From: Escherichia phage SECphi27
DNA length: 51,811 nucleotides
Reading direction: 5' to 3' (one strand)
Sequence record: LT961732
Each line of letters begins with the position of its first letter. Position 1 is the first letter of the stretch. Of the stretch, positions 1-48,697 are shown piece by piece. The notes below the pieces were generated by a model. That model was given only the letters and a program-made list of their open reading frames with translations, had not been told where the DNA came from and ran no database searches. Made by a program: the position numbers and the translations under genes.

Positions 1-55
1 AAATGGCTAAAGATATTTTAGATAAAGACACCCATGACGCATTCGTTAGCTTTGA
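1..55. repeat. Terminal direct repeat: 1-55 is identical to 51757-51811 (circular or permuted genome overlap)
   Basis: Exact 55-nt identity between window start and end; the dam start codon and its upstream region are duplicated. Confidence 0.9.
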
Positions 56-728
56 GCAGTTGGAGAGAGAAACGTTTATAGGAAATGCTCTTGCAACTGG
101 AGGCCATTACCAGGCAGTAAAGCCAAATCAATATTATAAGGTAAGCGGCAACCGATACGCTGGAAGCACTACGCCGGACGTTGTGCGCGATATGTGGAGC
201 ACGCCTCAAGAGATCGTGGAGTGGATGGAATCAGAATTTGGTGAATACGATCTCGACGCGGCAGCAAGCCAGGAAAACTCAGTTTGCGAGAAGTTCTACA
301 GCAAGGAAACAAATTGCTTAAAGCGTTGGTGGGGTAGCAACAAGCACGTATGGCTTAACCCGCCGTACAGCAACCCAACTCCATTTATCAAGAAAGCAAT
401 TGAGCAAATGGAGCACAACAACCAAATTGATGTTTTGTTGCCAGCCGACAACTCTACAGCATGGTTTTATGAGGCGCAGAAAAACGCGGCTGAAATCATC
501 TGGATCACTGGCGAGGTTTACGAAGAGGGTGGAGTAGAATACTCCCGCACCGGAAGAATCGCCTTTGTGTCTGGATTGACTGGCGAGCCTGTACAGGGCA
601 ACAACAAGGGAAGCGTGATTTTTGTCATGCGCAAACTTAAAGAAGGCGAGGAGCAGAAAACGCGATACGTTAAGATCAGCGATATTTGCCCATCTGTAAC
701 CGAACGCCGCGCGCGCAAACGGAGCTAA
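3..728 (+). CDS. dam: DNA N6-adenine methyltransferase (Dam-like)
   Basis: 241 aa; NPPY catalytic motif (WLNPPYS); RBS GGAG upstream (seen at 51745-51756). Confidence 0.8.
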   Translation: MAKDILDKDTHDAFVSFEQLERETFIGNALATGGHYQAVKPNQYYKVSGNRYAGSTTPDVVRDMWSTPQEIVEWMESEFGEYDLDAAASQENSVCEKFYSKETNCLKRWWGSNKHVWLNPPYSNPTPFIKKAIEQMEHNNQIDVLLPADNSTAWFYEAQKNAAEIIWITGEVYEEGGVEYSRTGRIAFVSGLTGEPVQGNNKGSVIFVMRKLKEGEEQKTRYVKISDICPSVTERRARKRS

Positions 729-990: not shown

Positions 991-1009
991 TAGCACTTTT
1001 TGTTAAAAC
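991..1009 (+). promoter_or_regulatory. Conserved intergenic motif TAGCACTTTTTGTTAAAAC, forward class, followed by hairpin, CATAAT and CATCGAAACGA
   Basis: Motif directly after TAA stop; hairpin gcccggc/gtcgggc 1010-1028; cataat about 1029; tcatcgaaacga 1039-1050. Confidence 0.6.
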
Positions 1010-1059
1010 GCCCGGCATTTTGTCGGGCATAATTATTTCATCGAAACGAACGTGAGGAA

Positions 1060-1245
1060 ATGAAAATGGTAGTATATAGCAAGAAAGCATTTGACCAGGC
1101 GCAACAAGTCGCACGCGAGGCGGTAAAAGGTGGAACGAAAAACAATATGCAGCTTGATTGGGGCGCTGCAATGATTCTACTTCGCGTTGCATATGGTCAC
1201 TACCCATTAGAATTTGCGGAGGCATATTATAAGCATGAAGGTTGA
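1060..1245 (+). CDS. hypothetical protein
   Basis: 61-aa ORF after GAGG RBS; downstream of motif unit. Confidence 0.5.
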   Translation: MKMVVYSKKAFDQAQQVAREAVKGGTKNNMQLDWGAAMILLRVAYGHYPLEFAEAYYKHEG

Positions 1246-1477
1246 GCAAGGTAGAGAGGCGGTATGGAATCACGCTAAAGAATGCGGAATAGCCGACGAT
1301 ATAAAGAAGATCGCGCAATACTTTGATATTGCAGATGTGAGCATAATTAGCGGCGATAAGATGACTTTCCTCAAGGAAAGGCCGCGAAAAATGGTAAGAG
1401 TTCCAGCAGTTCCAACAAAAATTGATTTCAAAGAGGCAATGGCTAAAATCCGAGAGCCTCGCAAATATTATAAATGA
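1235..1477 (+). CDS. hypothetical protein (start uncertain)
   Basis: ORF track 1214-1477 begins at TTG; first ATG about 1235. Confidence 0.4.
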   Translation: MKVEQGREAVWNHAKECGIADDIKKIAQYFDIADVSIISGDKMTFLKERPRKMVRVPAVPTKIDFKEAMAKIREPRKYYK

Positions 1478-1571
1478 GGATAGTTATCATGTGGCGCTTG
1501 TTTGTTCTACCGTTACCCGTTATCATCGCTGTTACAGTTATGTACCATATAGTGATGAGATAGGTAGAAGA

Positions 1572-2833: not shown

Positions 2834-3049
2834 ATGAAAGATTTTATTAACGCAGCTACCGCCGGATCTGGCGGTTCATCTATCGCAAGCGCCGCTACAG
2901 GGCAGTTAACCATTGCTATTGCCAGCTTTGTTTTAATGGCTGCATTCGGTGCATGGGGCGCTTACCTTCGCTGGCGTGATAGTAAAAAATTCCACGAGGC
3001 GATCGAAAAAGGTGATATTCAAAAAGCTATTGAAATCAGGGGCAAGTAA
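2834..3049 (+). CDS. holin (single-TMD, pinholin-like)
   Basis: 71 aa; one hydrophobic helix with charged C-terminus; immediately upstream of endolysin with TAATG overlap. Confidence 0.6.
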
Positions 3050-3540
3050 TGAGCATAAAGAACAGGGTAGCGGCGGCGGCCTTTGGAGTTGCGGTTGCCT
3101 TGACTTCTCCACTTCTTGAAGAGATCGAAGGGGTAAGATACAAGCCATACAAAGATATTGCGGGAGTATGGACGGTTTGCGCAGGAATCACCGGACCAGA
3201 TGTTATCCTGGGGAAAACGTACACTAAAAAAGAGTGTGATGCTTTGTTGGCTAAGCATATCCAGGTTGCTAAAAAGGAAGTTGACAAGCAAGTTAAGGTT
3301 GACATTCCTGATAGTATGCGTGCAGCAATGTACTCATTCACTTACAATGCAGGTGTGGGAGCTTTCAGAAATTCAACAATGCTGAAACTCATCAACCAGG
3401 GGAAATTAAACGAGGCTTGCGATCAGCTTTATCGTTGGACTTATTACCATAACCCAAAAACAGGAAAGCGCGAGAAGTCTAAAGGCTTATTTAACAGGCG
3501 CAAGGTCGAATACAAATATTGCACAATGGATCTTAAATGA
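3049..3540 (+). CDS. SAR endolysin (T4/P21-type lysozyme)
   Basis: N-terminal Gly/Ala-rich weakly hydrophobic SAR-like helix; E-x8-D-x5-T catalytic triad pattern ([16 protein letters not shown]). Confidence 0.75.
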
Positions 3541-3932
3541 TGAAGAAATTTTTACTTACACCAATCGCAATGGCGGTGATCTTGTCTGGATGTTCAAGCG
3601 TTACGCCACTGACCGGATTAATCGGTAGAAAGCCGGAAATCACAGCACAGGCTGGCGCGGAGAACGTGAAGCAGACAGTTGGCATTACAGCAAAGCAGGA
3701 CGCCAGCACAAAACAGGAAACCACAATAAAGGAATCTGCGGTTGACAAGGTGGACACGTCAAGCAAGAAGGATTTCACAACATCAACCATTCAGGCCAAT
3801 ACCATCAAGGCAGACAAAATTCAGGTCGTGCAGGGTAATAACGGCAGATGGTACGATCCAGTAATCATATGCGTGGTTGTGTTAATTGTGCTGATTTGTC
3901 TTTACTGGAGAGAAAAGAAAAAGGAGGCTTAA
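3537..3932 (+). CDS. unimolecular spanin (u-spanin)
   Basis: N-terminal lipoprotein signal with lipobox LSGC plus C-terminal TMD ([16 protein letters not shown]); ATGA overlap with endolysin. Confidence 0.7.
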
Positions 3933-3949
3933 TGCCTCCTTTATTTTTA
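3922..3949. terminator. Bidirectional intrinsic terminator
   Basis: aggaggc-ttaat-gcctcct hairpin flanked by T-runs on both strands, between convergent genes. Confidence 0.65.
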
Positions 3950-4171: not shown

Positions 4172-4233
4172 AATTTTTCCTTTTTTGTTGTTTCGTTTCG
4201 ATGAAACAAATATACCCGACACAAGGTCGGGAG

Positions 4234-4253
4234 TTTTAACAAAAAATGCTATT
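4234..4253 (-). promoter_or_regulatory. Conserved intergenic motif (variant TAGCATTTTTTGTTAAAAC), forward class
   Basis: Followed on minus strand by hairpin cccgac/gtcggg (4216-4232), tatatt, catcgaaacga (about 4186-4198), RBS, ATG. Confidence 0.55.
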
Positions 4254-4369
4254 CCATACGCTTTACTGTAACCAATAACACACCATCATCATTGCATAAA
4301 ACGTGTTCATTGGTGCTAAAAGCGCGCATATCTGAATAAAGCAGCGTAAGTAACGCATGAATAAAATCC

Positions 4370-4765
4370 TCATGTGATATTGAATTTACGGCGCAGTGCT
4401 TCAAGATCTTGTCTATTAGCTTTTGCCTGGAACAATTCATCATCGCCCATCTCCCCTATTCTAGCCATATCCCTGATCCAGTCGTTGCGCATACCATCCA
4501 GGCTATACAATTCGAATCCGAAAGGCCGCTTTGACGATCCTTTGGACCAGTATTTACCGCAGACCCCATCTATATAACCAGCCGTCATCATTCTTGCGCA
4601 AAATTCCTTAGATGCAAGGCTGGCGAACATTCGCGGCGTAAGTCCGGCGGCCCGTGCGAGCCGCTCACATTCTCTATGCTGATAGATAAATTTGGCTATG
4701 TGCTGCCTGTTAAACCAGTCGTATGACTCACACCATTTATACAGATCAAGCAAAAACATAATCAT
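4370..4765 (-). CDS. hypothetical protein (cotranscribed with NTPase)
   Basis: 131 aa; ATGA start/stop overlap with upstream 526-aa gene. Confidence 0.55.
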   Translation of the reverse strand: MIMFLLDLYKWCESYDWFNRQHIAKFIYQHRECERLARAAGLTPRMFASLASKEFCARMMTAGYIDGVCGKYWSKGSSKRPFGFELYSLDGMRNDWIRDMARIGEMGDDELFQAKANRQDLEALRRKFNIT

Positions 4766-6342
4766 CCCAGCAGTATTGGATTGACAAAAATAACACCATT
4801 AATCACGCAAACATAATTTCTTTCTTCCAGCATTGGCAGCAAGTGCCCCTCTATCCTCTTCATTACGCCAGCCTGACCAACGAAAGGTTTTACCTTTCTC
4901 GCTGATTCGTACAGGGCGCGAATATTCAGGATCCCTTTGTTAGCCTTGCCGTGCCTCGTGATCAATTCAATCAATTTACCCATTTCAGCATCATCACCAG
5001 CATAACCAGAAGCATTGGCGGCGCTAATGTATGTTTTGCTCAATTCCTGAAACATGATCAACGCCTCTTGCATTGTTTCCACGTCGATCTCTTTCGACTT
5101 CTGCGGGTATCCGGCAGGATTAAACCAGTTACGGATAACATGCAGGACGGAAGCAAGCCTGATCACCTGTTTATCCATTTTACCCAGCGCACCGCGTAAC
5201 ATTGTATGAGAATACTTTCCGCCGTCTGCAAGATGCGGTTCCATATCCTGGCGAGCAATGTTGAGCACTCGCATAGCTGAACGGCTTATTTTCAGCGATA
5301 TATTTGATTCGCTCATGATGTTATGCACCAATTGATAATATTGGGCTTTCAATTCAGAATCCACCGCCTCATAGGTAGAATCACCATTTTCATCAATGAA
5401 TGAGCGACGGCCTAAGAATGATTCCTCGCGGACCAACAAAAAACGCTCACTAACACCGATGCCTCGCGATCCAGCGTCCATGATTCCGCTTATCGTTTCA
5501 TCCTGGGCTATAACGCTCATGCATCCAAGCGCGCGAAAACTCATATTATTGTCAGCATTAGCACGGGCAATTGATACGTGACCATTATCCCACGCCTTAA
5601 GCACTAACTCACTGTTAGTCTTCCTTTCGCTATTTGCATAGGTCAAGCCTAACAGACTGTTAATACTTGTTGCTTCATCAGATATTACGGCAAAGTTACC
5701 TTGCTTGTTGTTGATTTTCGCCAAGCCTTCTGGAGTTGTATCTGAAACAGGAAAAGTTATATCACACATTTTTTCCAGCTTTTCCTCCAGATCCTCTTTT
5801 TCCTGGTATAGAGATTCCATATCAGCGCCGGATCTTTCGCTTTTCATCTCCTTTGCAAGACCTGCCAGCTTTGCCTGTATTTTCTTTCTTTCCTTGCGGC
5901 GTTGCTCGTTGATCTTCTCAACTTCCGCAATCATCGGAGCAATAGCCATGCTGTTGATCGCAGATTTACCAGTTGACGGCGGCTGGCTTGTAACGACGTA
6001 AAGCGCAGTCGGCTGATCGGTTCCGTGATAGTCAACCGTAAAGCGTCCAAGCATAGCGGCAGAAATGCAGCCGATAAAGTGCATGTAAGCCGATGATTCA
6101 GGGAATTGAACGGATCGCGCAATGCTGCGTGATAACTTGCCGACAACATCAATATCATTACCAAGAGAAATAACGGGGTAGCGATCGTGACCGCTATTCA
6201 CATCCTTTACGTCGCCCCAAAAGCTGGACGACTGGCGATAGCCGTTAGCCTGAATTGATACGCGAACTGGTGAAAGGTTCTGGCTTTCAGCCATAGCGAT
6301 TATTTGCTGTGGAGTTAATTTGTTTGTTTCTAATGAAAACAT
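4762..6342 (-). CDS. P-loop NTPase of unknown function
   Basis: 526 aa; Walker A-like PPSTGKS and Walker B-like FAVISDE separated by a charged coiled-coil insert; RBS AAGGAGAAG. Confidence 0.65.
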   Translation of the reverse strand: MFSLETNKLTPQQIIAMAESQNLSPVRVSIQANGYRQSSSFWGDVKDVNSGHDRYPVISLGNDIDVVGKLSRSIARSVQFPESSAYMHFIGCISAAMLGRFTVDYHGTDQPTALYVVTSQPPSTGKSAINSMAIAPMIAEVEKINEQRRKERKKIQAKLAGLAKEMKSERSGADMESLYQEKEDLEEKLEKMCDITFPVSDTTPEGLAKINNKQGNFAVISDEATSINSLLGLTYANSERKTNSELVLKAWDNGHVSIARANADNNMSFRALGCMSVIAQDETISGIMDAGSRGIGVSERFLLVREESFLGRRSFIDENGDSTYEAVDSELKAQYYQLVHNIMSESNISLKISRSAMRVLNIARQDMEPHLADGGKYSHTMLRGALGKMDKQVIRLASVLHVIRNWFNPAGYPQKSKEIDVETMQEALIMFQELSKTYISAANASGYAGDDAEMGKLIELITRHGKANKGILNIRALYESARKVKPFVGQAGVMKRIEGHLLPMLEERNYVCVINGVIFVNPILLG

Positions 6343-6399
6343 TCGTTAGCTTCTCCTTTGTGGGCCGTAAATTTTAACGGCCCAATACTACCCCGTTTT

Positions 6400-7069: not shown

Positions 7070-7090
7070 TTTTAACAAAAAGTGCTATTT
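7070..7090 (-). promoter_or_regulatory. Conserved intergenic motif, forward class
   Basis: Minus-strand read: aatagcactttttgttaaaa, hairpin gccaggt/acctggc, cataat, catcgaacaaac, RBS, ATG at 7015. Confidence 0.6.
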
Positions 7091-7801
7091 TGAGTTTGAC
7101 TCAAAGACGGCGCGAGCAAATCCGCGCGGAGTGAGGGAGCGGATCATCTTTGTGCGCGATGACTTACCGCCAGTTTTGGCCCAGCCTGGATTATCTTTGT
7201 CTTCCTCTTTCGGCAGGATTAAAGCGCGCGGAGGAATAACAAAGCCGTTGCCAGTCCAGAGGCACGTTTTCTTAAAATAGCGATCCCGTGCCGGAATAAT
7301 ATCAGGGAAGTCGGGATGTTTATCATCTTCCGGCAGATAGCCAGCGTAATCGCACGGATGGAACGTATAATCAGGCTTTCGCCATAACGTTGACAACTTG
7401 CCAACCGGATTTTCGATCATGTAAGGAACACCGAAATAATCAGCTATATCAGCCGCGATTCTGCAAGTGTCGGCGGCCTCATCCTGGAACGATGGATTCT
7501 CAAGGCGTTTTTTGGCCCAATGGCGAGATCCGCTATTTGCAAGGTCGGTGCACGGCGGAAATGCCATAATAAAGTCAGGAATGACCCATTCCTCCCAGCG
7601 CGCGCGGTGGTAAAATCTTTCATCAATCCAGACGTTAACGTATTCGATATTCTCATGCTGTATGCGCACTGACTGGTAATCACCGTGATCGCCACCGTCA
7701 GCATTAAAGCAAATGCACTTATATCCATTATCAGCCCAATCTTTAACGGCTTTACCAGATCCATCAAATAGGGAGAATATTAAACCTTTATACATCGTCA
7801 T
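7085..7801 (-). CDS. minimal C5-cytosine DNA methyltransferase-like protein
   Basis: About 238 aa; motif I FSLFDGSG, motif IV PPCTDLANSGS, motif VI ENPVG in canonical order; start moved to ATG after GAGG RBS. Confidence 0.55.
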   Translation of the reverse strand: MTMYKGLIFSLFDGSGKAVKDWADNGYKCICFNADGGDHGDYQSVRIQHENIEYVNVWIDERFYHRARWEEWVIPDFIMAFPPCTDLANSGSRHWAKKRLENPSFQDEAADTCRIAADIADYFGVPYMIENPVGKLSTLWRKPDYTFHPCDYAGYLPEDDKHPDFPDIIPARDRYFKKTCLWTGNGFVIPPRALILPKEEDKDNPGWAKTGGKSSRTKMIRSLTPRGFARAVFESNSK

Positions 7802-7805
7802 TACC

Positions 7806-8030
7806 TCAAAACGGAAAACAGCGCGGACAACTAGGATCGAAATCGCATCCACAATCATTAACAATCATAGTGGGATCTGCAAATATTGCGCTTGATTCAA
7901 GATCCATATCCATATCACCTAAAGCCTCATCAAGAGTCTTAATTTTATATGCCACTTCAAGCGCCGCCTCTTTATTTAGTCCGGCATCTTCTGCCATTTG
8001 AAGGCGCTCAAAAAAACCGTCCTGACTCAT
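7806..8030 (-). CDS. small acidic protein with C-terminal Cys cluster
   Basis: 74 aa; about 16 Asp/Glu against 5 Lys/Arg; C-terminus CGCDFDPSCPRC; immediately upstream of the MTase-like gene. Confidence 0.55.
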   Translation of the reverse strand: MSQDGFFERLQMAEDAGLNKEAALEVAYKIKTLDEALGDMDMDLESSAIFADPTMIVNDCGCDFDPSCPRCFPF

Positions 8031-11075: not shown

Positions 11076-11135
11076 TGCTATCTCCTGAGCGGTTCGTTTC
11101 GATGTGTGTAATGTACCCGATCAGACGGCCTGAGT

Positions 11136-11156
11136 TTTAACAAAAAGTGCTATTTG
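11136..11156 (-). promoter_or_regulatory. Conserved intergenic motif, forward class, heading the minus-strand early block
   Basis: tagcactttttgttaaaac followed by catcgaaacgaacc (about 11091-11104), RBS and ATG at 11075. Confidence 0.55.
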
Positions 11157-11164
11157 ACGGTTAG

Positions 11165-11290
11165 CGCCAGGATTGTGATCGAAATAATCAAAAGTAATCA
11201 TTCGTAATCAAATCACGTCAAAATGATGATTGCCTTTGCAAATTTGATGAGAAAAGTAATCACGTTTAATCATTGGTTGCATGGGAGATA
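11165..11290. repeat. Iteron-like cluster of TAATCA repeats
   Basis: At least five (A/G)TAATCA copies within about 110 bp in a noncoding divergent region. Confidence 0.5.
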
Positions 11291-11708
11291 GTGAAACCTT
11301 CCCCTCTTGCCTCACTTTTCCGCCTGGCTGTCAGTGGTTGTTGTCTTTTGTTCACCCCTGTTACCGATTTCAGGCGGCGTGTTTCCGCGCGGTTTTCCGG
11401 TGTAGCGAAAACGGAAAAAACAAAGAAAATCCTCTATAATACATTGAAAATAAAGATTATTTATTTATATATATCTATAATGTTTTCTTTTTGTTCTCAC
11501 TGTTACAGTGCTTTTTGTTGGTTATGGTGTGGTTGTGTGTGGGCATATATGGATAGTTGCGCGCGCGGCGGATTGCATATGTATATATACTTTTTCCGGC
11601 GGATTGCGTTAACAGCGTGAACAGAAAAATAACAGCCGCGAAATCAATAACTTGCGCATGATTTTGTAGTTTTTCGATATTGGTAACGTTTTGAATACAA
11701 CAAAAACA

Positions 11709-11736
11709 TTGACACGCACCAAATAGCTTTTATAAT
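11709..11736 (+). promoter_or_regulatory. Near-consensus sigma70 promoter (TTGACA, 16 nt, TATAAT)
   Basis: ttgacacgcaccaaatagcttttataat; about 30 nt upstream of RBS GGAGG and ATG 11768. Confidence 0.65.
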
Positions 11737-40346: not shown

Positions 40347-40970
40347 ATCATAGTGTGATGCATTTATAACCAAAACAGATGAAGCGGTGTAAATACCAAC
40401 AGGTCCAGGAGTTTGTGCAACCTGCCTAGAAAAAGAGTAGATCCCGTTACCATACGCGGCAGCTTGAGACTCAAAAATCATGAATCCACCTAAAGCCGGA
40501 TTAGGAACAGAGTTTAATGCTGTCAGTGATGGCATTATGGCGCAAGGATAGCCCATGTTAACATCAAATGCGATCCCGCTTACGCCTACTTGCTTTGCAT
40601 CTAGCGGCCTCATTTTTCCATGATAAACCATTTCACCATGAGCATTATAAAACGCTATGCCGTGACTACCTGGGGGAGTCACCATATTACTAAAAGCATA
40701 AACAATAACCTCACCCTGATTATCAGATCTATCAAGTCTTATTGCGTGCCTTCCACCATTGTTAAATTGCGTGAATGATATGTATGATTTAGCGGTCAAT
40801 CTAACAAAGAAAAAACATACCCTATCAACAGGAATTGACGAAGTAAAAACGGTTCCGGTATTAGCAGATATTACGGCCCGATCAATTAGATTAACTGGAG
40901 TGAAATCTGGACTTAACCATAACGATCCGTCTGATTTTTTTATACTCATCCCGTACATTATCACCCCCAA
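40344..40970 (-). CDS. hypothetical protein (downstream half of homopolymer-split gene)
   Basis: 208-aa ORF beginning at TTG within a C5A5 run; contains GIAFYNAHGEMV repeat related to upstream ORF. Confidence 0.5.
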   Translation of the reverse strand: MGVIMYGMSIKKSDGSLWLSPDFTPVNLIDRAVISANTGTVFTSSIPVDRVCFFFVRLTAKSYISFTQFNNGGRHAIRLDRSDNQGEVIVYAFSNMVTPPGSHGIAFYNAHGEMVYHGKMRPLDAKQVGVSGIAFDVNMGYPCAIMPSLTALNSVPNPALGGFMIFESQAAAYGNGIYSFSRQVAQTPGPVGIYTASSVLVINASHYD

Positions 40971-41239
40971 AAAGTATATATATATCTTGAATCAGATCCA
41001 GAAAGCCCACTCCATGTAACGGTGTCGCCACTTACCCCTAAGTTTGGTGCGCCAGGGTCGCCACCACGCCAGGAATTCATGCCAACATATATTGCTTTCA
41101 ATGATTTACCTGGCGGCCTGTTTTGGTAAGTCTTGCTACCTGATGGCTGAGTGAATTTATCAAGGAAGAAAACAGGCGTTAAAAGTCCTGTAACTTCCCT
41201 TCCTCGATCGTCATATATTGCATAACCATATTGCGCCAT
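40961..41239 (-). CDS. hypothetical protein (upstream half of homopolymer-split gene)
   Basis: 92 aa; YGYAIYDDRGREV YD-like repeat; stop lies in homopolymer run overlapping the next ORF. Confidence 0.5.
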   Translation of the reverse strand: MAQYGYAIYDDRGREVTGLLTPVFFLDKFTQPSGSKTYQNRPPGKSLKAIYVGMNSWRGGDPGAPNLGVSGDTVTWSGLSGSDSRYIYTFWG

Positions 41240-41508
41240 TAATTACACCTCAAATCAATAAATTTACTTTCATTTTGCCAACGGTTGATAAATTTAACTT
41301 CTTTATTGTCAACGCTCAACCTGTATTGCTTTTGGCTGAATCTGTTTTCGCGGACTGCATTAATTTTGACTTCATGGAATCCGTTAACAGGGAATGTTTT
41401 AACGTTAAATTTTGCCGTGCAATCGATCTCCTTGAAGTTTCCAGTAGGCGACGCTGCGCACCCTGTCAGAGCGGCTACAGTGGCGATAACTGCGATTAAC
41501 TTTTTCAT
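41239..41508 (-). CDS. cor: small lipoprotein, Cor-like superinfection-exclusion candidate
   Basis: Signal peptide plus lipobox LTGC; about 89 aa; location beside tail fibre genes as in T1/phi80-type phages (inference). Confidence 0.5.
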   Translation of the reverse strand: MKKLIAVIATVAALTGCAASPTGNFKEIDCTAKFNVKTFPVNGFHEVKINAVRENRFSQKQYRLSVDNKEVKFINRWQNESKFIDLRCN

Positions 41509-41564
41509 CTTTATATCTCCTTAGTTGTTGTTGTTTTCAACTATACACGATCTTGGGCATCGCG

Positions 41565-41585
41565 TTTAGCAAAAAGTGCTATTTG
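41565..41585 (-). promoter_or_regulatory. Conserved intergenic motif (variant ...TTGCTAAACG), forward class
   Basis: Minus-strand read: tagcactttttgctaaacg, tatagt, RBS TAAGGAG, ATG 41508. Confidence 0.55.
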
Positions 41586-41589
41586 TTAT

Positions 41590-41850
41590 TTTTTGTTTTC
41601 CGGTGTTATCGAATTTAAGGCGGCGTAAATTTAGAGCAAATTTTATACAACATAAGATCAATAAACAATCAATAAAATAGATATATACATATAAAATCAA
41701 TAGTTTATTTATTTATGTATGTATATTTGTTTTTTCTTGTTATCTGCGTTTCTTGTGGTTTTGGTTGTTTGTGGTGATTTTTCTTTCTGAGTATCTGTAT
41801 GTGCCATCATTCATGTGTATGTATATAATCCGGCGTATCTGAGAGAACAG
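41590..41850. other. AT-rich noncoding element, paralogous to 11380-11640
   Basis: Shared blocks ttttccggtgt, ggcggcgt, tttatttatttat, T/G-rich gttt..gtggtt and gtatgtatata with the region at 11380-11640. Confidence 0.55.
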
Positions 41851-41951
41851 GGGAACAAGAAAAATAACACATATTAATCATTAACTTATGAGTCAAATCT
41901 GTTTTCTTGCCATCTGAGAACGTTTAGAAAACAGAAAAAACAAAACAGCTA

Positions 41952-41979
41952 TTGACTAAATCAACCAAATGGCTACAAT
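41952..41979 (+). promoter_or_regulatory. sigma70 promoter (TTGACT, 16 nt, TACAAT)
   Basis: ttgactaaatcaaccaaatggctacaat about 30 nt upstream of AAGGAG and ATG 42010. Confidence 0.6.
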
Positions 41980-42009
41980 GCACGCATAAAGCAACAAGGA
42001 GCATTAAAG

Positions 42010-43077
42010 ATGAGTGATTTTAACGCCTACACTAGCGAAGAAATGAGCAACGAGCTTTATCATGATCCTAACGCGTGGACGGCTGAATATGTCAGCGGTT
42101 CCAGCCTGGCGGAGATTTACAGCACTTGCCCGGCGTACTGGAAGTACAAGCCGCGCCAGGAAACTAAAGCACTTGTTTTCGGTACGCAGTCGCATACCAA
42201 CTTTGAAAGCAAGGAGCTATTCGAAAAAACATATCGCCGCGCACCGTCGCAGGATGATTTTAAAGATCTGATCACTAGCCAAACGGCGTTAGCATCAAAG
42301 CTGAAATCTTTTGGCCTGAAAGGTACGACGGGTAAACAATACCCTGAATTACTGGAAATGCTGTACAAGTGCGGCGAGGATCTCAATGTGTGGTGGCTTA
42401 TCGAAATGATGGCAGAATGCCAGGCCGCAGCGGACGGAGTGCAGTTAATAGACGCTAAAGATTATGATGCCTGTGTAGCGATGCGGCGCGTACTTGAGGC
42501 CATACCGGAGCATAACGCTTGCATGAACAGCCCAACCGCGCAGCGTGAAATGTCAATATTTGGGATCATCAACGGCGTAAAAGTAAAAGTGCGTCTTGAT
42601 CACGTTGACGTAAACAAGGATGTAAAGGCAACAATCATTAACGGTTACGACGAAAAAGGCAGGCCGATTTATGAAGAAGTCACCTATCCAGAAGCGGTGA
42701 TTATCACTGACTACAAAACAACGGTTAGCGCAAATCCGGTTGACTTCCAGCGCCTGGCTTACAATCACGGCTATTATCTTAAAATGGCTTTGCAACATGA
42801 CTTATTCAAAAAGGCGTATCCAGACGAGGAAAGGCCAGTAATTGTAAGATTGCTTGCGCAGGAGAAGAAAGAGCCTTACTTGCCGCTCGCATTCCGCATG
42901 AACATTGAGCAATTGAAGATTGGGCGCATCCAGTACATGAGCGTGATCAACAAGTTCAACGTTTGCCAGCAGTTAGATGAATGGCCTTCGTATGCAAACG
43001 GACAACCAGAAATTGATCTTGATACTCCTGATTGGGTTCGTGCTCAATTCAGGCAGTATCTGTGGCAAACTAAATAA
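42010..43077 (+). CDS. PD-(D/E)XK family exonuclease (RecB/RecE-like)
   Basis: 355 aa; RecB-family nuclease motif IITDYKTT; part of exonuclease/annealase/SSB module. Confidence 0.7.
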   Translation: MSDFNAYTSEEMSNELYHDPNAWTAEYVSGSSLAEIYSTCPAYWKYKPRQETKALVFGTQSHTNFESKELFEKTYRRAPSQDDFKDLITSQTALASKLKSFGLKGTTGKQYPELLEMLYKCGEDLNVWWLIEMMAECQAAADGVQLIDAKDYDACVAMRRVLEAIPEHNACMNSPTAQREMSIFGIINGVKVKVRLDHVDVNKDVKATIINGYDEKGRPIYEEVTYPEAVIITDYKTTVSANPVDFQRLAYNHGYYLKMALQHDLFKKAYPDEERPVIVRLLAQEKKEPYLPLAFRMNIEQLKIGRIQYMSVINKFNVCQQLDEWPSYANGQPEIDLDTPDWVRAQFRQYLWQTK

Positions 43078-44099: not shown

Positions 44100-44552
44100 A
44101 TGCACGTTATTACCGGTGAGATCCGAAAAGAGCCAAAAGTAAAGCAAATGCCTAACGGCAGTACGCTATATGTTGTTGAGCTTTCCGAACGATATAAAGA
44201 TCGTGAAGGAAATTGGCAGTATACAAACTATGTGTTTTTCTTTAACGCGAAAACAGACGGCCTGAATGGTTGGTATGCTGAGGCATTCCAGGTAGGCAAG
44301 GTTATTTCTGTTTCCTGCGATACCTTGCGAGTTGAAACGCGAGAATACAACGGAAAGATTTACAGCACCGTGCAGCCTGGCGGATTTGCAAACTTGCTAT
44401 TTAGCCAGAGAGGTGAAAGCCAGCAACAATATCAGCAGCGAACGCAAGGAGGATGGGGGCAACCACAACAGCAACAGCAACAAAATACTCAACAGCAGCC
44501 GCAGCAAAGCAATCAGCCTCCGATTGACTTTGACGACGATATACCATTCTGA
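44100..44552 (+). CDS. ssb: single-stranded DNA-binding protein
   Basis: 150 aa; Gln/Gly-rich linker; acidic C-terminal tail DFDDDIPF. Confidence 0.85.
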   Translation: MHVITGEIRKEPKVKQMPNGSTLYVVELSERYKDREGNWQYTNYVFFFNAKTDGLNGWYAEAFQVGKVISVSCDTLRVETREYNGKIYSTVQPGGFANLLFSQRGESQQQYQQRTQGGWGQPQQQQQQNTQQQPQQSNQPPIDFDDDIPF

Positions 44553-44619: not shown

Positions 44620-45327
44620 CTACAACCGCTTTAGCTCGTCAATTTCTTTTCTCATCTCATCGTTTTCCGCTTTCAGTTTCTTAACGTGGTGAATCAGTGG
44701 AACAGTGAGGCGGTCATACATAACGCCTTCCGCCACCATGCCATTACTTGAAGCAATGGCAGGATCTTCTCCTTCTTGCAGCGGTCGCCAGTGAACGTAC
44801 TCCGGCGCAACCTCTCCAACTTCCTCTGCAATCAGTCCGTACCATCCCCAATCTTTACGGTCGCTTTCACAGGTTGACCGATACCACACAGGACGCATTT
44901 CAAGCATCAGATCCGCATATTCATCAATAACCGATTCTACGCTGCGCTTATAACGAGAAGAGGAAGTGGAGCGTAAAACTTGCGACACTCCAGCATTTGG
45001 ATCAAGCCATAAGTTTGCTGATTGAGCGGTTGTGTTGAGTCTAAACAAATAAAATGCATCGTTACCAGTCAGGGGGTAAAAATTGCCACCATACCTTCCG
45101 CTATCCAACTCGGACGATAGATCATTTTGTTTTAGATACAACTTCAACTTATTGTCAACATCAGTAGTTGATGCTTTTCCTGCAACATCCTGTTTTAGTG
45201 TCGAAACATCACTTTTCAGCTTCGTTATATCACCAGGAATAGTAGCAACATCCTGTTTTAGTGTTGAAACGTCATTTTTAAGATTCGTTATATCACCAGG
45301 AATATTAGTAACTGTAGCCATTTTCAT
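44620..45327 (-). CDS. short tail fibre/spike protein with C-terminal intramolecular chaperone-like domain
   Basis: 235 aa; N-terminal tandem repeat IPGDITxLKxDVSTLKQDVA x2; C-terminal segment resembling peptidase S74 chaperone domain. Confidence 0.55.
   Translation of the reverse strand: MKMATVTNIPGDITNLKNDVSTLKQDVATIPGDITKLKSDVSTLKQDVAGKASTTDVDNKLKLYLKQNDLSSELDSGRYGGNFYPLTGNDAFYLFRLNTTAQSANLWLDPNAGVSQVLRSTSSSRYKRSVESVIDEYADLMLEMRPVWYRSTCESDRKDWGWYGLIAEEVGEVAPEYVHWRPLQEGEDPAIASSNGMVAEGVMYDRLTVPLIHHVKKLKAENDEMRKEIDELKRL
45182..45307. repeat. Tandem direct repeat, 2 x 63 bp, inside short fibre gene
   Basis: Two about 90 percent identical 63-bp units encoding the duplicated N-terminal peptide. 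Confidence 0.8.
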
Positions 45328-45612: not shown

Positions 45613-47605
45613 TATACAATTTCCCCCATTTGGTGATCTGTTAGTGTCTTGTGCCATATGCGGAAGTTTCTTAAGTGTCCGAAAAAGTGACGAGAACCAT
45701 CAGATCCTGCACCACCGAATCTTATTGTCTTACTGGTTGTTGGCTTAAAACCATGCTTAACCTCTGCTTTGTTCCCTTTTACGGAATTTGAAAAGATATA
45801 CGCATAACTCCCGTCGTATACTCCGCCAACTGTTATTGCTCCCTGAGCAGAATCATAATTATTCTTTATTTCAGTGGAAATGTGTACGGTTGGTGACTCG
45901 CCATATCTAGCAATATTCCAGTATGTTGAATGTCTATCGCTTCTTATTGAGCATACCATTGACTCACCAACATCAGGCGCACCAATATCCCATATCCTCG
46001 GCGCTGAATTTGGTAAGGTAGTCCATGTTTTATTTACCTCAAGCAAAAAACTAAGCGGGTGAGATATTAAATTATTAAATGACACGACATTAACTAAGTC
46101 ACTAGCCCTTGTCGCAGGGGTTCCCTCTGTGACGATAAATGACGACGAGCACGCACCACCTTCCACTTGAGGTGTTGAGATGTATATGTAATCATCAACT
46201 TCTGTGCTTCCTCCTTTTCGCGGGGCATATTGCACCATTGCACCAATCATGCTTTCCTGTTCTAATGCTGTGATCGTAGCCTCAAAAAATATCCATTTGC
46301 TTGACTCATCCCTTACCGCTCTTGCTGTTATCCTGTTTGCAGCGCCGCCGGTTTTTTCTATTGACAAATCCTCAAGACCGAGGTAAGCATCACCTAGAAA
46401 GGTATATCCGCTATCATTATAACTTTCAAATCTAAGTCTGCATCTTATGTTTCCTTTACCACCCTTGACTCTGCATGAGATTGTTACTCTTTTTTCTTCA
46501 CCAGTAACATCAAAACCCTTATTACCAGATACTGTAACTATGTTAATAGCCGATGTTTGCCCTACCATTTCTGGCTTCAATGTAAACTTGCCAAATGAAA
46601 AACCGAAATCATCAACTCCTGATTGGTTTAACACCATGTTTGATGACTTGTTCCATTTTGAAGGATTGGTACTATTTATGAGAAGGTTTGTTCTCTGCCC
46701 CTCAATTAGCAAGCCTTCACGTTCAAAACGCGGTTCGTCAATGTCAGCATCAGTAAGAAATCCTGACTTATTAATGTATGTCGCCTTTGATGCTCGCTTA
46801 AAATTTACAACTTTATCCGACGGCATATTGATCACATCATCACCAACTTTTATCTTTTTATACCCAGGCGCAAAACCAGTTATCATATCAAGCGAATCAT
46901 TAAACGGTATCCACACGTCCGGCAACGGTTGCAATAAGTCTTTGTAAGGTTCTGCGGCCTGTTTTGCGTATTCCTCCGCTTGATCTCGCGCGATTTCAGC
47001 ACCTGCCTTTGCGGTGTTCGCAGCATCACGCGCAGTTTCAGCGCCTTCTCTTGCTGTTTCAGCGCCAGCCTTTGCAGTGTTTGCAGCGTCGCGCGCGGAT
47101 TCAGCGGCAGCCTTTGCAGTATCAGCACCTTTCTTGCTATTCGCTGCATTTGTTGCGCTTGTCTTCGCGTTATTCTCGCTGGTTTTAGCTGCCTGCTGGC
47201 TTGCTGCTGCTGCGTCAGCATTTGTCTTTACGTCTTCCTGGATCTTCTGTAGCTTATCCCAATCAAAATCCTTGATGATCTCAATAAATCCAGCAAACTC
47301 CGATTCCTTTCCCTGGTAATAACGCAGCGTTTCCGCTACGTCTTGCGCAAGACCATCAACCGTTAATGAGTCATGAAGCAAGATCAGGTAATTTGTCTTC
47401 TGGACTACCGCGCCGCCAGTAGTAATTGCGCGAATGCTTGTATCGCTAATCACTTCTGTAATCACAGCAGCTTGCAAAGGTTGAGCAAGAAAGAAAATAG
47501 TTGCGCCTGGGCGAATCAAGGTTAATTGCTCACGCCATTTTGTACCGTAACCAGTTACATAACCTTGCGCGTCCATAGACGCTTGGCCTTGTCTGTAAAT
47601 TGCCA
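45612..47605 (-). CDS. tail fibre protein with Ala-rich repeat region
   Basis: About 664 aa; repeats AKAGAETARDAANT; ORF track start 47630 is GTG, ATG 47605 follows AGGAGG RBS. Confidence 0.7.
46970..47230. repeat. Imperfect tandem repeats (about 45 bp units) encoding Ala-rich fibre segment
   Basis: Repeated ttcagcRcc...ctttgcRgt...cgcgc units; also yields long spurious antisense ORFs. Confidence 0.7.
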
Positions 47606-47713: not shown

Positions 47714-48643
47714 TTATAGCAGTGATTCGGGCTTGTAGAGTTTTCTTTCTACGCCCTGTTTAAAATTATCGTTAACAGGCATCATTATGTCAAGACCTCT
47801 TTCCTCTGCCGCGATTATCACATCACGATCATCTTTCCGGCAGACTACGCGCATCCTTCTTTCTCCTTTATATCTATGCGCAACCATTTCAAGATTTGAA
47901 GGGGTAAAGCAAGCCCACACCTCTTGACCAGTTGATAAATGAACATGCTGGGAATCAACCCAATCAAGGCACAAATAGATCGTCTTATCCGTGCTACCTG
48001 TTTTAACAACAGATCCGCGCGTGTAGTCGCGAGCTAAAAACCAATCCTTTCCATCCTCATCAATGAAAAGCACGTTACACATTTCATCATCCAGCCCGTC
48101 ATCATGCACCAGGTGACAAGGTAGCGCGTGAATGTATCGACCATCCTTGACGCCGCAATCATAATGACAATCTTCCGGCGGATATATCCCCTCATAAACG
48201 CTTAAAGGTGTGCGATCGAATTTTAATGTTTTTGCCATCACTTTTTCGCAACATTCATGACTTGCCTGTTTCCCGAACGAGTAACCAGAAGAACGCGAAG
48301 CGCGTTTGTTTGCTCTGATCCTGTAATCTTGTGGCACTTTTCCGAGGAAGCGGCCCAAAATGTTGATGGCCTCGCTGTAAGGTTCGCCAGTTAATTTCAT
48401 TAACCAACCGATCCCCGTGTCGTTGCCGCATACGTTGCAGATCGCGCCGCCGTCGCCCTCTTCATTTAGCTTATCAGTCCATCTAAAACGATCCTTACCG
48501 CCGCAGTGTGGGCAAGGTTGATGCTTTTTGTTGAAAACATCGCTATGCAGTCCGCAAATGCTTTGTAGTGCTTCACGCCATAACCCCTTCATATATGGCA
48601 AAACATCTTCTTTCTGATAGGTCATAAAGTTTTCAGTATTCAT
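47714..48643 (-). CDS. DNA primase (zinc-finger plus TOPRIM-like)
   Basis: CxxC...CxxC zinc-binding segment (CPHCGGKDRF...CNVCG) and acidic TOPRIM-like motifs; start moved to ATG 48643 after GAGG RBS. Confidence 0.65.
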   Translation of the reverse strand: MNTENFMTYQKEDVLPYMKGLWREALQSICGLHSDVFNKKHQPCPHCGGKDRFRWTDKLNEEGDGGAICNVCGNDTGIGWLMKLTGEPYSEAINILGRFLGKVPQDYRIRANKRASRSSGYSFGKQASHECCEKVMAKTLKFDRTPLSVYEGIYPPEDCHYDCGVKDGRYIHALPCHLVHDDGLDDEMCNVLFIDEDGKDWFLARDYTRGSVVKTGSTDKTIYLCLDWVDSQHVHLSTGQEVWACFTPSNLEMVAHRYKGERRMRVVCRKDDRDVIIAAEERGLDIMMPVNDNFKQGVERKLYKPESLL

Positions 48644-48697
48644 GGCAAACCTCAATAAAAAGCCCAGCAAATATTATCATTTCGCTGGGCCTTATCA

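What the first reader, a model, noticed from the sequence alone, without database searches (positions are those of the whole stretch)
4370..6342. Early-block P-loop NTPase with coiled-coil insert and a coupled 131-aa partner of unknown function
The 526-aa protein has Walker A-like (PPSTGKS) and Walker B-like (FAVISDE) motifs separated by a charged coiled-coil segment of about 50 aa, an arrangement seen in some ABC-like and replication-associated NTPases, but no recognisable helicase or primase signature. Its stop overlaps the start of a 131-aa Cys/Trp-containing protein. This roughly 2-kb pair is the largest unassigned block in the early region and may account for part of the size excess over a basic T1-type genome. 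It could be a replication initiator or loader, or a host-takeover or anti-defence ATPase.
Basis: partly seen in the sequence, partly recalled or inferred. Interest (0 to 1): 0.55.

Follow-up and report, generated by a model that had tools for sequence, protein, structure and literature searches.

The report
T1-family MCM-like helicase and partner
The "unassigned" ATPase is the already-annotated DUF3987 (MCM-like) DNA helicase found in essentially all T1-type phages including T1 itself, and the only open question is the role of its small winged-helix partner, which is just as conserved but uncharacterised.

Summary

The pair is not accessory and does not explain any size excess. T1 carries it in the same position (ST9/ST10), and tblastn finds helicase and partner in 924 and 833 phage records across all Drexlerviridae subfamilies. 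There are no defence or anti-defence profile hits.

The 131-aa partner is a basic winged-helix domain followed by an invariant acidic D-x-x-x-F motif. The family is small (22 representatives among 1.84 billion proteins) and has no Pfam match or characterised relative. My best inference, at low confidence, is a DNA-binding adaptor or loader for the helicase.

Verdict: the helicase is ordinary and already known, and the partner has modest residual interest.

The parts
4762..6342 (-). Gene for the 526-aa DUF3987-family, MCM-like (SF6) AAA+ DNA helicase; orthologue of T1 ST9
6043..6342 (-). Helicase N-terminal helical domain (residues 1-100). It is not the OB-fold and zinc-finger domain of true MCMs
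   Evidence: only helices in residues 11-96; residues 1-77 recur in the motor-less paralogue SU57_0002.
5962..5985 (-). Walker A / P-loop, residues 120-127 (QPPSTGKS)
   Evidence: Q120, P121, P122, S123, G125, K126 and S127 are invariant in 22 homologues down to 36% identity. Position.
5770..5967 (-).
   Evidence: helices 126-168 and 172-191; present in all homologues; the Pfam model aligns across it in one stretch (protein 81-430 to HMM 3-350), so it belongs to the DUF3987 family model.
5674..5694 (-). Walker B strand, residues 217-223 (FAVISDE)
   Evidence: S221 and E223 are invariant. D222 is Ala in five homologues. Strand 217-221 in the model.
5533..5580 (-). Beta-hairpin (residues 255-270) between Walker B and the next core strand, with invariant R260. 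Candidate pre-sensor-1 hairpin (DNA-contacting loop)
   Evidence: strands 255-258 and 267-270. R260 invariant. Equivalence to the MCM PS1 hairpin is inferred from its position only.
5497..5511 (-). Invariant IAQDE motif (residues 278-282) at the end of the core strand; candidate sensor 1
   Evidence: invariant; strand 273-279; position.
5440..5451 (-). SERF motif (residues 298-301). Invariant R300 is the candidate arginine finger (compare the MCM 'SRF' motif, from my own knowledge)
   Evidence: E299 and R300 invariant, S298 and F301 at least 90% conserved. Role inferred.
5173..5196 (-). Invariant R383-G-x-x-G-K388-x-D390 motif in the helical lid; candidate sensor 2
   Evidence: Role inferred.
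4765..5007 (-). Helicase C-terminal winged-helix domain (residues about 446-526)
4370..4765 (-). Gene for the 131-aa partner (phrog_2794; orthologue of T1 ST10; the legacy label 'YdbL' is a misnomer)
   Evidence: (833 phage records), and 63 (only 22 representatives among 1.84e9 proteins).
4532..4765 (-). Partner winged-helix domain (residues 1-78), basic (pI 9.4)
4430..4447 (-). Partner acidic motif G-D-D-E-L-F (residues 107-112), with D108 and F112 invariant. It lies at or within four residues of the C-terminus in short homologues
   Evidence: the SU57 partner ends ...DDELFS. A docking-peptide role is only an idea.
6353..6384 (-). Helicase translation-initiation region: hairpin 6361-6384 followed by the RBS AAGGAG at 6353-6358
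   Evidence: sequence; inverted repeat I5. Function of the hairpin untested.
4215..4231 (-). Terminator-like hairpin downstream of the leftward gene block; a bidirectional one follows at 3920-3942
47714..48670 (-). Stand-alone zinc-ribbon DNA primase, about 7.9 kb from the helicase across the window ends; presumed working partner of the helicase
   Evidence: PF08273 Zn_Ribbon_Prim, E = 5e-15; annotated as DNA primase in tonn and T1; the primase is adjacent to the DUF3987 gene in the distant phages pIS4-A and Avpx2. The functional link is inferred.
44100..44552 (+). Phage SSB ending in DFDDDIPF; presumed replisome component
   Evidence: translation; annotation in tonn.

Best explanation
The 526-aa protein is the replicative-type DNA helicase of the T1 family (Drexlerviridae). 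It belongs to the DUF3987 family, a divergent branch of MCM-like (superfamily 6) AAA+ ATPases. It has four parts: a small N-terminal helical domain; an AAA+ core whose Walker A helix is extended into a long charged helical hairpin; a helical lid; and a C-terminal winged helix. By analogy with MCM and with the one characterised DUF3987 helicase, it most likely forms a ring. ATP would be hydrolysed at subunit interfaces (Walker A K126, Walker B E223, arginine finger R300) to move the ring along one DNA strand and open the fork. It would act together with the phage's separate zinc-ribbon primase, the phage SSB and the host DNA polymerase, since the phage encodes no polymerase. The 131-aa protein is a lineage-specific partner. 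It is made from the same transcript, usually with overlapping or abutting stop and start codons. It consists of a basic winged-helix domain and an acidic tail with an invariant D-x-x-x-F motif. My best inference is that it is a DNA-binding adaptor that helps place or regulate the helicase on phage DNA, in a loader- or initiator-like role. Shown here: family membership, fold, motif conservation, core distribution and conserved gene order. Inferred: ring assembly, the roles of individual residues, the replicative role, and everything about what the partner does.

For: Literature: phage DUF3987 proteins are classed as SF6 helicases related to MCM, with a C-terminal wHTH, and are predicted to be replicative helicases (PMC4889955). 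The DUF3987 protein AgaPH is an oligomeric 5'->3' helicase that depends on its Walker A and B motifs and binds its primase (PMC11724360).

Core status: T1 ST9 and ST10 lie in the same position, just past the lysis cassette. The helicase is in 924 phage records and the partner in 833, spanning Tempevirinae, Tunavirinae, Braunvirinae, Rogunavirinae and Webervirus. In the distant phages pIS4-A and Avpx2 the DUF3987 gene is adjacent to the primase.

Partner: confident winged-helix model; basic wH domain, pI 9.4; invariant R58, D108 and F112; always immediately downstream of the helicase in the records sampled, separated at most by an inserted HNH endonuclease.
Confidence: 0.8

Rival explanations
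1. The helicase assignment is right, but the 131-aa protein is simply a small winged-helix transcription factor for phage gene timing. It would share an operon with the helicase without acting on it.
For: The closest folds are overwhelmingly transcription regulators (MarR, ArsR, PadR, Fur, IclR, MecI). The wH domain is basic. The partner is absent next to distant DUF3987 helicases. An HNH endonuclease can sit between the two genes in SU57, so translational coupling is not obligatory.
Against: Gene order next to the helicase is conserved across all subfamilies down to 47% partner identity. The conserved acidic D-x-x-x-F tail is not a feature of MarR-type repressors. No palindromic operator candidates were found. 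It matches no Pfam regulator family.
Confidence: 0.3
2. The DUF3987 protein is a recombination or branch-migration motor, like ComM or MCM8/9. It would serve recombination-dependent replication and concatemer formation together with the phage Erf, exonuclease and SSB, rather than acting as the fork helicase.
Against: Replicative MCM2-7 and archaeal MCMs score higher than ComM. The DUF3987 gene is adjacent to the primase in pIS4-A and Avpx2, and DUF3987 domains are often fused to primases (PMC4889955, PMC5862659). AgaPH binds its primase. The SF2 helicase is co-transcribed with a VRR-NUC nuclease, which suits fork processing better than fork unwinding.
Confidence: 0.15
3. One reading: the pair is an accessory host-takeover or anti-defence ATPase module that is variably present and adds to genome size.
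For: It lies in a leftward block of small genes of unknown function. HNH endonucleases and variable small ORFs surround it in relatives.
Against: It is present in T1 and in about 900 records across the family. There are no PADLOC hits. The fold is MCM-like and the family is a helicase family. It is syntenic in every subfamily sampled.
Confidence: 0.03

Closest known systems
DUF3987 (PF13148) helicases, e.g. AgaPH of Seonamhaeicola (PMC11724360), phage N4 dns, Mycobacterium phage Corndog helicase (PMC4889955), E. coli YfjI
   Same: Full-length match to the family model; Walker A and B motifs; the helical hairpin is part of the model; C-terminal winged helix; occurs in a genome that also encodes a primase.
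   Different: There is no fused PriCT or primase domain; the N-terminus is a small helical domain. The primase gene is about 7.9 kb away rather than adjacent. Activity and polarity are untested for the T1-family clade.
T1 gene products ST9 ('DNA helicase') and ST10 (hypothetical), NC_005833
   Same: Orthologues: the helicase is 58% identical and the partner 49% identical. Same order, strand and position just past the lysis cassette.
   Different: In T1 the genes are separated by 4 nt rather than overlapping, and an HNH endonuclease (ST8) sits directly upstream of the helicase. The window adds small ORFs downstream of the partner.
Archaeal and eukaryotic MCM helicases (SF6)
   Different: Only 12-18% identity and no Pfam MCM match. 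It lacks the N-terminal OB/zinc-finger tier, shows no evident helix-2-insert hairpin, and carries a long helical hairpin on the Walker A helix that MCMs lack.
MCM-like helicases of bacterial mobile elements (SCCmec Cch, Bacillus cereus prophage BcMCM, ComM)
   Different: They score lower than true MCMs, belong to different families, and have different N-terminal domains.
Winged-helix helicase-loading or origin-binding factors (Cdt1, the Orc1/Cdc6 wH, plasmid RepA-type initiators)
   Same: By analogy only: a winged-helix protein working with a ring helicase that has its own C-terminal wH.
   Different: The partner has no sequence or specific structural similarity to any of them. It is much smaller and has no AAA+ module. 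No origin repeats were found.

Membership tests
Pfam DUF3987 (PF13148) | Match to the family HMM above the gathering score | tested here: met
   152.9 bits against a cut-off of 27, E = 1.7e-44, HMM positions 3-350 of 364. All 22 homologues match.
Pfam DUF3987 (PF13148) | [quoted passage not shown] | tested here: met
   QPPSxGKS and S221/E223 are invariant. D222 is replaced by Ala in five homologues.
Pfam DUF3987 (PF13148) | [quoted passage not shown] | tested here: met
Pfam DUF3987 (PF13148) | Fused to a primase, or encoded immediately next to one (a frequent rather than strict feature) | tested here: not met
   The primase at 47714..48670 is about 7.9 kb away, in another transcription unit. 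It is adjacent in the distant phages pIS4-A and Avpx2.
Pfam DUF3987 (PF13148) | ATP-dependent DNA unwinding | not testable with these tools
   Shown only for AgaPH (PMC11724360).
SF6 / MCM-like AAA+ helicases | AAA+ core and lid superimpose on MCM | tested here: met
SF6 / MCM-like AAA+ helicases | Arginine finger in an SRF-type motif after the sensor-1 strand | tested here: met
   The SERF motif at 298-301 has invariant R300. Positional equivalence is inferred, not superposed residue by residue.
SF6 / MCM-like AAA+ helicases | Pre-sensor-1 beta-hairpin | tested here: inconclusive
   A hairpin at 255-270 lies in the right place and carries invariant R260. There was no residue-level superposition.
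SF6 / MCM-like AAA+ helicases | Helix-2 insert hairpin | tested here: not met
   The DSSP string shows only helices between Walker A and Walker B (126-168, 172-191, 204-214).
MCM family proper (PF00493) | Match to the MCM Pfam model, and an N-terminal OB/zinc-finger tier | tested here: not met
   No PF00493 hit at E <= 1. The N-terminus is all-helical.
SF3 D5-like, VirE or P4-alpha helicases | Profile match, or best structural match, to SF3 helicases | tested here: not met
ABC/SMC/OLD-type ATPases (coiled coil between Walker A and B) | ABC-type fold or profile match | tested here: not met
Known defence or anti-defence proteins (PADLOC-DB) | Profile match | tested here: not met
   No hits for either protein at E <= 1.
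Winged-helix fold (partner) | alpha-beta-alpha-alpha-beta-beta winged-helix topology | tested here: met
Named wH regulator families (MarR, ArsR, PadR, Fur) | Profile match | tested here: not met
E. coli YdbL (DUF1318), the legacy label on the partner | Match to the YdbL/DUF1318 Pfam model (family assignment from my own knowledge) | tested here: not met
   No Pfam family at all at E <= 1. The label traces back to annotations of phages Jk06 and SP126.
Known helicase loaders (DnaC, lambda P, SPP1 G39P, Cdc6, Cdt1) | Sequence or specific structural similarity | tested here: not met
Known helicase loaders (DnaC, lambda P, SPP1 G39P, Cdc6, Cdt1) | Physical and functional interaction with the helicase | not testable with these tools

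The most novel reading that the evidence does not exclude
The 131-aa winged-helix protein is a dedicated loader or adaptor for an MCM-like ring helicase in a bacterial virus. Its basic wH domain would bind phage DNA or the helicase's own C-terminal wH. Its acidic Phe-containing tail would dock onto another replisome protein, helping to couple a non-DnaB helicase to the host polymerase. The motor-less helicase paralogue seen in some relatives (phrog_7327: N-terminal domain plus C-terminal wH) would belong to the same loading or regulatory circuit.
Probability: 0.25. Interest if true: 0.55.

Novelty: already known. Interest (0 to 1): 0.2.

Why it matters
For a genome scan the result is a clean-up. 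The biggest "unknown" in this block is the family's core helicase, which is already labelled in RefSeq and discussed in the literature on viral replication modules. It is not an accessory or counter-defence module.

Two points have some wider value. First, T1-type phages replicate with an MCM-like helicase rather than a DnaB-like one, while borrowing the host polymerase. How such a helicase is loaded and coupled to Pol III is not known. The conserved winged-helix partner, and the motor-less paralogue in Braunvirinae, are the obvious candidates to test. Second, the "YdbL" label on the partner is a propagated misnomer that should be dropped.

Tried and rejected
- Sequence searches of both proteins and their profiles against PDB sequences gave only noise.
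- NCBIfam and PADLOC gave nothing for either protein.
- I tested whether the small ORFs flanking distant DUF3987 helicases (pIS4-A, Avpx2, BUCT006) are diverged partners. hhalign probabilities were below 1%.
- I tested whether the partner is a diverged copy of the helicase's C-terminal winged helix. It is not.
- I looked for iterons, palindromes or tandem repeats near the pair and in the AT-rich non-coding regions as candidate binding sites. Only weak two-copy AT-rich matches turned up.
- I tried the primase and the SF2 helicase as denominators for "core gene". Both families extend well beyond Drexlerviridae (1363 and 1859 records). So only host-genus counts and spot checks (T1, SU57, Rao1, KL) could be used.
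- I guessed that the ORF between helicase and partner in SU57 was the phrog_7327 paralogue. That was wrong: it is an HNH endonuclease.
- I considered phage KL as a natural helicase-less relative. Its record has a helicase remnant abutting a terminase fragment, so a rearrangement or assembly artefact is more likely.
- Literature searches for T1-family genetics or defence-escape mutations in this gene found nothing relevant.
BFVD returned only uncharacterised orthologues.
- The similarity of the partner's SDDELF motif to SSB-type tails is only loose. The phage SSB carries the real DFDDDIPF tip.

Full report
**Observation.** The stop of the first overlaps the ATG of the second as ATGA. Most homologues of the small protein begin two codons later, at MFLLDL, so the real start may be 4759. 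The genes are then either overlapping or 3 nt apart.

PPSTGKS lies at residues 121-127 and FAVISDE at 217-223. The segment between them includes a 66-residue stretch with 15 K/R and 14 D/E. An AAGGAG ribosome-binding site precedes the helicase ATG, and a 7-bp GC-rich hairpin sits just upstream of it.

**Where the window comes from.** The region is about 99% identical to Escherichia phages XY3, tunus, tonn and swan01, which belong to Drexlerviridae, Tempevirinae, Warwickvirus. In those records the large gene is already annotated "DNA helicase" or "putative helicase". The small one is labelled "YdbL" or hypothetical.

**The large protein.** It matches Pfam DUF3987 (PF13148) at E = 1.7e-44, with 152.9 bits against a cut-off of 27. 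The match is a single stretch covering residues 81-430 and HMM positions 3-350 of 364. It also matches PHROG 2373 "DNA helicase" end to end, E = 2.6e-244. NCBIfam and PADLOC give nothing.

I aligned 22 homologues spanning 36-100% identity. The following are invariant:
- the P-loop, Q120-P-P-S-x-G-K-S127;
- S221 and E223 of Walker B (D222 is Ala in five members);
- an I278-A-Q-D-E282 motif;
- E299-R300 within S-E-R-F;
- R383-G-x-x-G-K388-x-D390.

The charged helical segment is present in every member. The Pfam model also spans it without a gap. It is therefore a hallmark of the family and not an insert peculiar to this phage.

The AlphaFold2 model is confident (pLDDT 87.3, pTM 0.84) and has four parts:
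- an all-helical N-terminal region;
- a beta-strand core whose Walker A helix runs on into an antiparallel helical hairpin (126-168 and 172-191);
- a helical lid;
- a C-terminal winged helix.

The protein is not an MCM proper. There is no PF00493 hit, no OB/zinc N-terminal tier, and no helix-2-insert hairpin in the model.

**What is already published.** Kazlauskas et al. 2016 (PMC4889955) identified bacteriophage DUF3987 proteins as divergent SF6 helicases. They found them distantly related to MCM, carrying a C-terminal wHTH and often fused or adjacent to AEP or DnaG primases, and predicted them to be replicative helicases. A related analysis predicted the same for the DUF3987 domains of mobile-element primases (PMC5862659).

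In 2025 a PriCT-DUF3987 protein, AgaPH, was purified. It is an oligomeric, ATP/dATP-dependent 5'->3' helicase that depends on its Walker A and B motifs and binds its cognate PrimPol (PMC11724360). My fold result independently agrees with the SF6 assignment.

I found no experimental work on any T1-family orthologue. The 2024 TLS re-annotation discusses the SF2 helicase beside the primase as "the" helicase and does not discuss the DUF3987 gene (PMC11447400).

**Distribution.** T1 itself (NC_005833) carries ST9 "DNA helicase" (522 aa) and ST10 (135 aa). They are in the same order and on the same strand, immediately beyond the holin-endolysin-spanin cassette and 4 nt apart. tblastn finds the helicase in 924 phage records (910 at 80% coverage or more) and the partner in 833 (821 at 80% or more).

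The records span all the main groups:

| Group | Helicase identity | Partner identity |
|---|---|---|
| Tempevirinae | 79-100% | 57-100% |
| Braunvirinae/Rogunavirinae-type | about 70% | about 58-61% |
| Webervirus | about 63% | about 47% |
| Tunavirus | about 58% | about 52% |

Counts for host genera whose hits are essentially all Drexlerviridae agree with two other family markers. The counts are helicase / partner / primase / SF2 helicase: Campylobacter 21/21/20/20, Shigella 37/35/37/39, Citrobacter 18/18/19/19.

Spot checks of SU57 (Braunvirinae) and Rao1 found both genes. The pair is therefore a core module of the family. It contributes nothing to a "size excess over T1".

The one apparent exception is the Klebsiella phage KL record. 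It retains the partner but only the last 93 codons of the helicase, and these abut a fragment of the large terminase on the other strand. That looks like a rearrangement or assembly junction.

**The small protein.** It belongs to phrog_2794 (unknown function). It has no Pfam, NCBIfam, PADLOC or PDB-sequence match, either alone or as a 28-member profile. An exhaustive profile search of 1.84 billion representative proteins found only 22 at E <= 0.001. Twenty are short stand-alone proteins or fragments. Two are weak hits to long proteins (E about 1e-4) that look spurious. There are no informative fusions. The family is thus narrow and lineage-restricted.

The wH part is basic (pI 9.4) and the tail is acidic (pI 4.9). 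Across the most divergent members, down to 33% identity, nine residues are invariant: C12, E13, A37, E54, R58, Y64, P81, D108 and F112. D108 and F112 belong to an S/T-D-D/E-E-L-F motif. In 5 of the 15 aligned sequences, and in the SU57 partner, the motif lies within four residues of the C-terminus.

This recalls the acidic Phe-ending docking tails of SSB-type proteins. The resemblance is loose, and the phage's own SSB carries the canonical DFDDDIPF. I record it as a lead only. The "YdbL" label has no support.

**Is the partner tied to the helicase?** In favour: its position directly downstream of the helicase is conserved in every subfamily sampled, and the stop and start codons usually overlap or are within 6 nt (coordinates). 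Against an obligate link:
- in SU57 an HNH homing endonuclease lies between the two genes;
- the small ORFs next to distant DUF3987 helicases in pIS4-A, Avpx2 and BUCT006 are unrelated to the partner;
- the partner is not a diverged copy of the helicase's own wH;
- I found no iterons or palindromes that could serve as binding sites.

**Mechanism I commit to.** The 526-aa protein is the T1-family fork helicase. It would be a ring-forming MCM-like AAA+ motor using K126, E223 and R300 at subunit interfaces. It would work with the stand-alone zinc-ribbon primase (47714..48670; PF08273), the phage SSB and the host polymerase. The phage encodes no polymerase, as PMC11447400 notes for TLS and T1. My confidence in the family and fold assignment is about 0.95, and in a role at the replication fork about 0.7.

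The partner is most likely a DNA-binding adaptor, loader or regulator of that helicase (about 0.35). The main rival is an ordinary small transcription factor (about 0.3). A recombination or branch-migration role for the motor, as for ComM or MCM8/9, remains possible (about 0.15). The anti-defence or host-takeover reading is effectively excluded (about 0.03). Polarity cannot be inferred, because MCMs and AgaPH move in opposite directions.

**A by-product.** Braunvirinae-type relatives encode a 174-aa protein (SU57_0002, phrog_7327). It combines the helicase's N-terminal ~77 residues (34% identity) with its C-terminal winged helix (39% identity; hhalign 98.2%) and has no AAA+ core. This explains two earlier puzzles: the secondary PHROG hit and the "2 places" rows. 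The window has no such gene. It suggests that the N- and C-terminal domains act together as a binding module, and it is a second candidate regulator of helicase loading.

**Verdict.** Residual interest lies only in the uncharacterised winged-helix partner. Interest 0.2; novelty: already known.

Noticed in passing
window 4249..4443 (-): A 64-aa ORF matching phrog_9539 (E = 8e-26) overlaps the last 74 nt of the 131-aa gene in another frame. It is not annotated in phage tonn. The overlapped part encodes the partner's variable C-terminal extension, which 111-116-aa homologues lack.
   Followed up: partly
window 6361..6384 (-): A GC-rich hairpin (GGGCCGT / ACGGCCC, no T-run) lies 3 nt upstream of the helicase ribosome-binding site. 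It could be a processing or translational-control element.
   Followed up: no
L006 (Escherichia phage SU57, MT511058) 1005..1529 (+): A motor-less paralogue of the helicase (174 aa, phrog_7327). It has the N-terminal ~77 residues plus the C-terminal winged helix and no AAA+ core. It is present in Braunvirinae-type relatives and absent from the window.
   Followed up: partly
L002 (T1) 46085..46624; L006 (SU57) 41856..42371; phage tonnikala: HNH homing endonuclease genes are repeatedly inserted beside the helicase or between the helicase and its partner, as is typical around conserved essential genes.
   Followed up: partly
L007 (Klebsiella phage KL, NC_049838) 2900..3800: Only the last 93 codons of the helicase remain, next to an N-terminal fragment of the large terminase on the opposite strand. 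The partner gene is intact. This is probably a rearrangement or assembly artefact in the record.
   Followed up: partly
window 44100..44552 (+): The phage SSB ends in DFDDDIPF, and T1's ends in FDDDIPF. From my own knowledge this matches the E. coli SSB C-terminal tip, which suggests the phage SSB recruits host SSB-interacting proteins.
   Followed up: no
window 40970..42010 and 11100..11735: Two long AT-rich non-coding stretches (GC 0.37 at 41-42 kb) contain only weak two-copy repeats. They could hold promoters or the origin, which is still unknown. A perfect sigma-70 consensus (12 of 12) lies at 11709..11736 (+).
   Followed up: partly
window 7085..7864 (-) and 3..728 (+): The phage has two DNA methyltransferase genes. 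The one at 7085..7864 matches phrog_757 (E = 4e-85) but no Pfam family at E <= 1.
   Followed up: no
window 45182..45312 and 46996..47142: 63-nt tandem repeats (about 2 copies, 77-89% matches) lie inside genes on the minus strand in the tail-fibre region.
   Followed up: no
Vibrio phage Vc1 proteins A0A6M5CCU5 and A0A6M5CB08, P0112: In the Vc1 record, proteins annotated 'DNA primase' (529 aa) and 'Helicase' (345 aa) contain short partner-like segments with 46-49% identity. This points to frameshifted or fused ORF calls in that record.
   Followed up: no
window 4370..4765 (-) and relatives: The 'YdbL' name on the partner in many GenBank and RefSeq records is a legacy label (from Jk06 and SP126 annotations) with no profile support.
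   Followed up: yes
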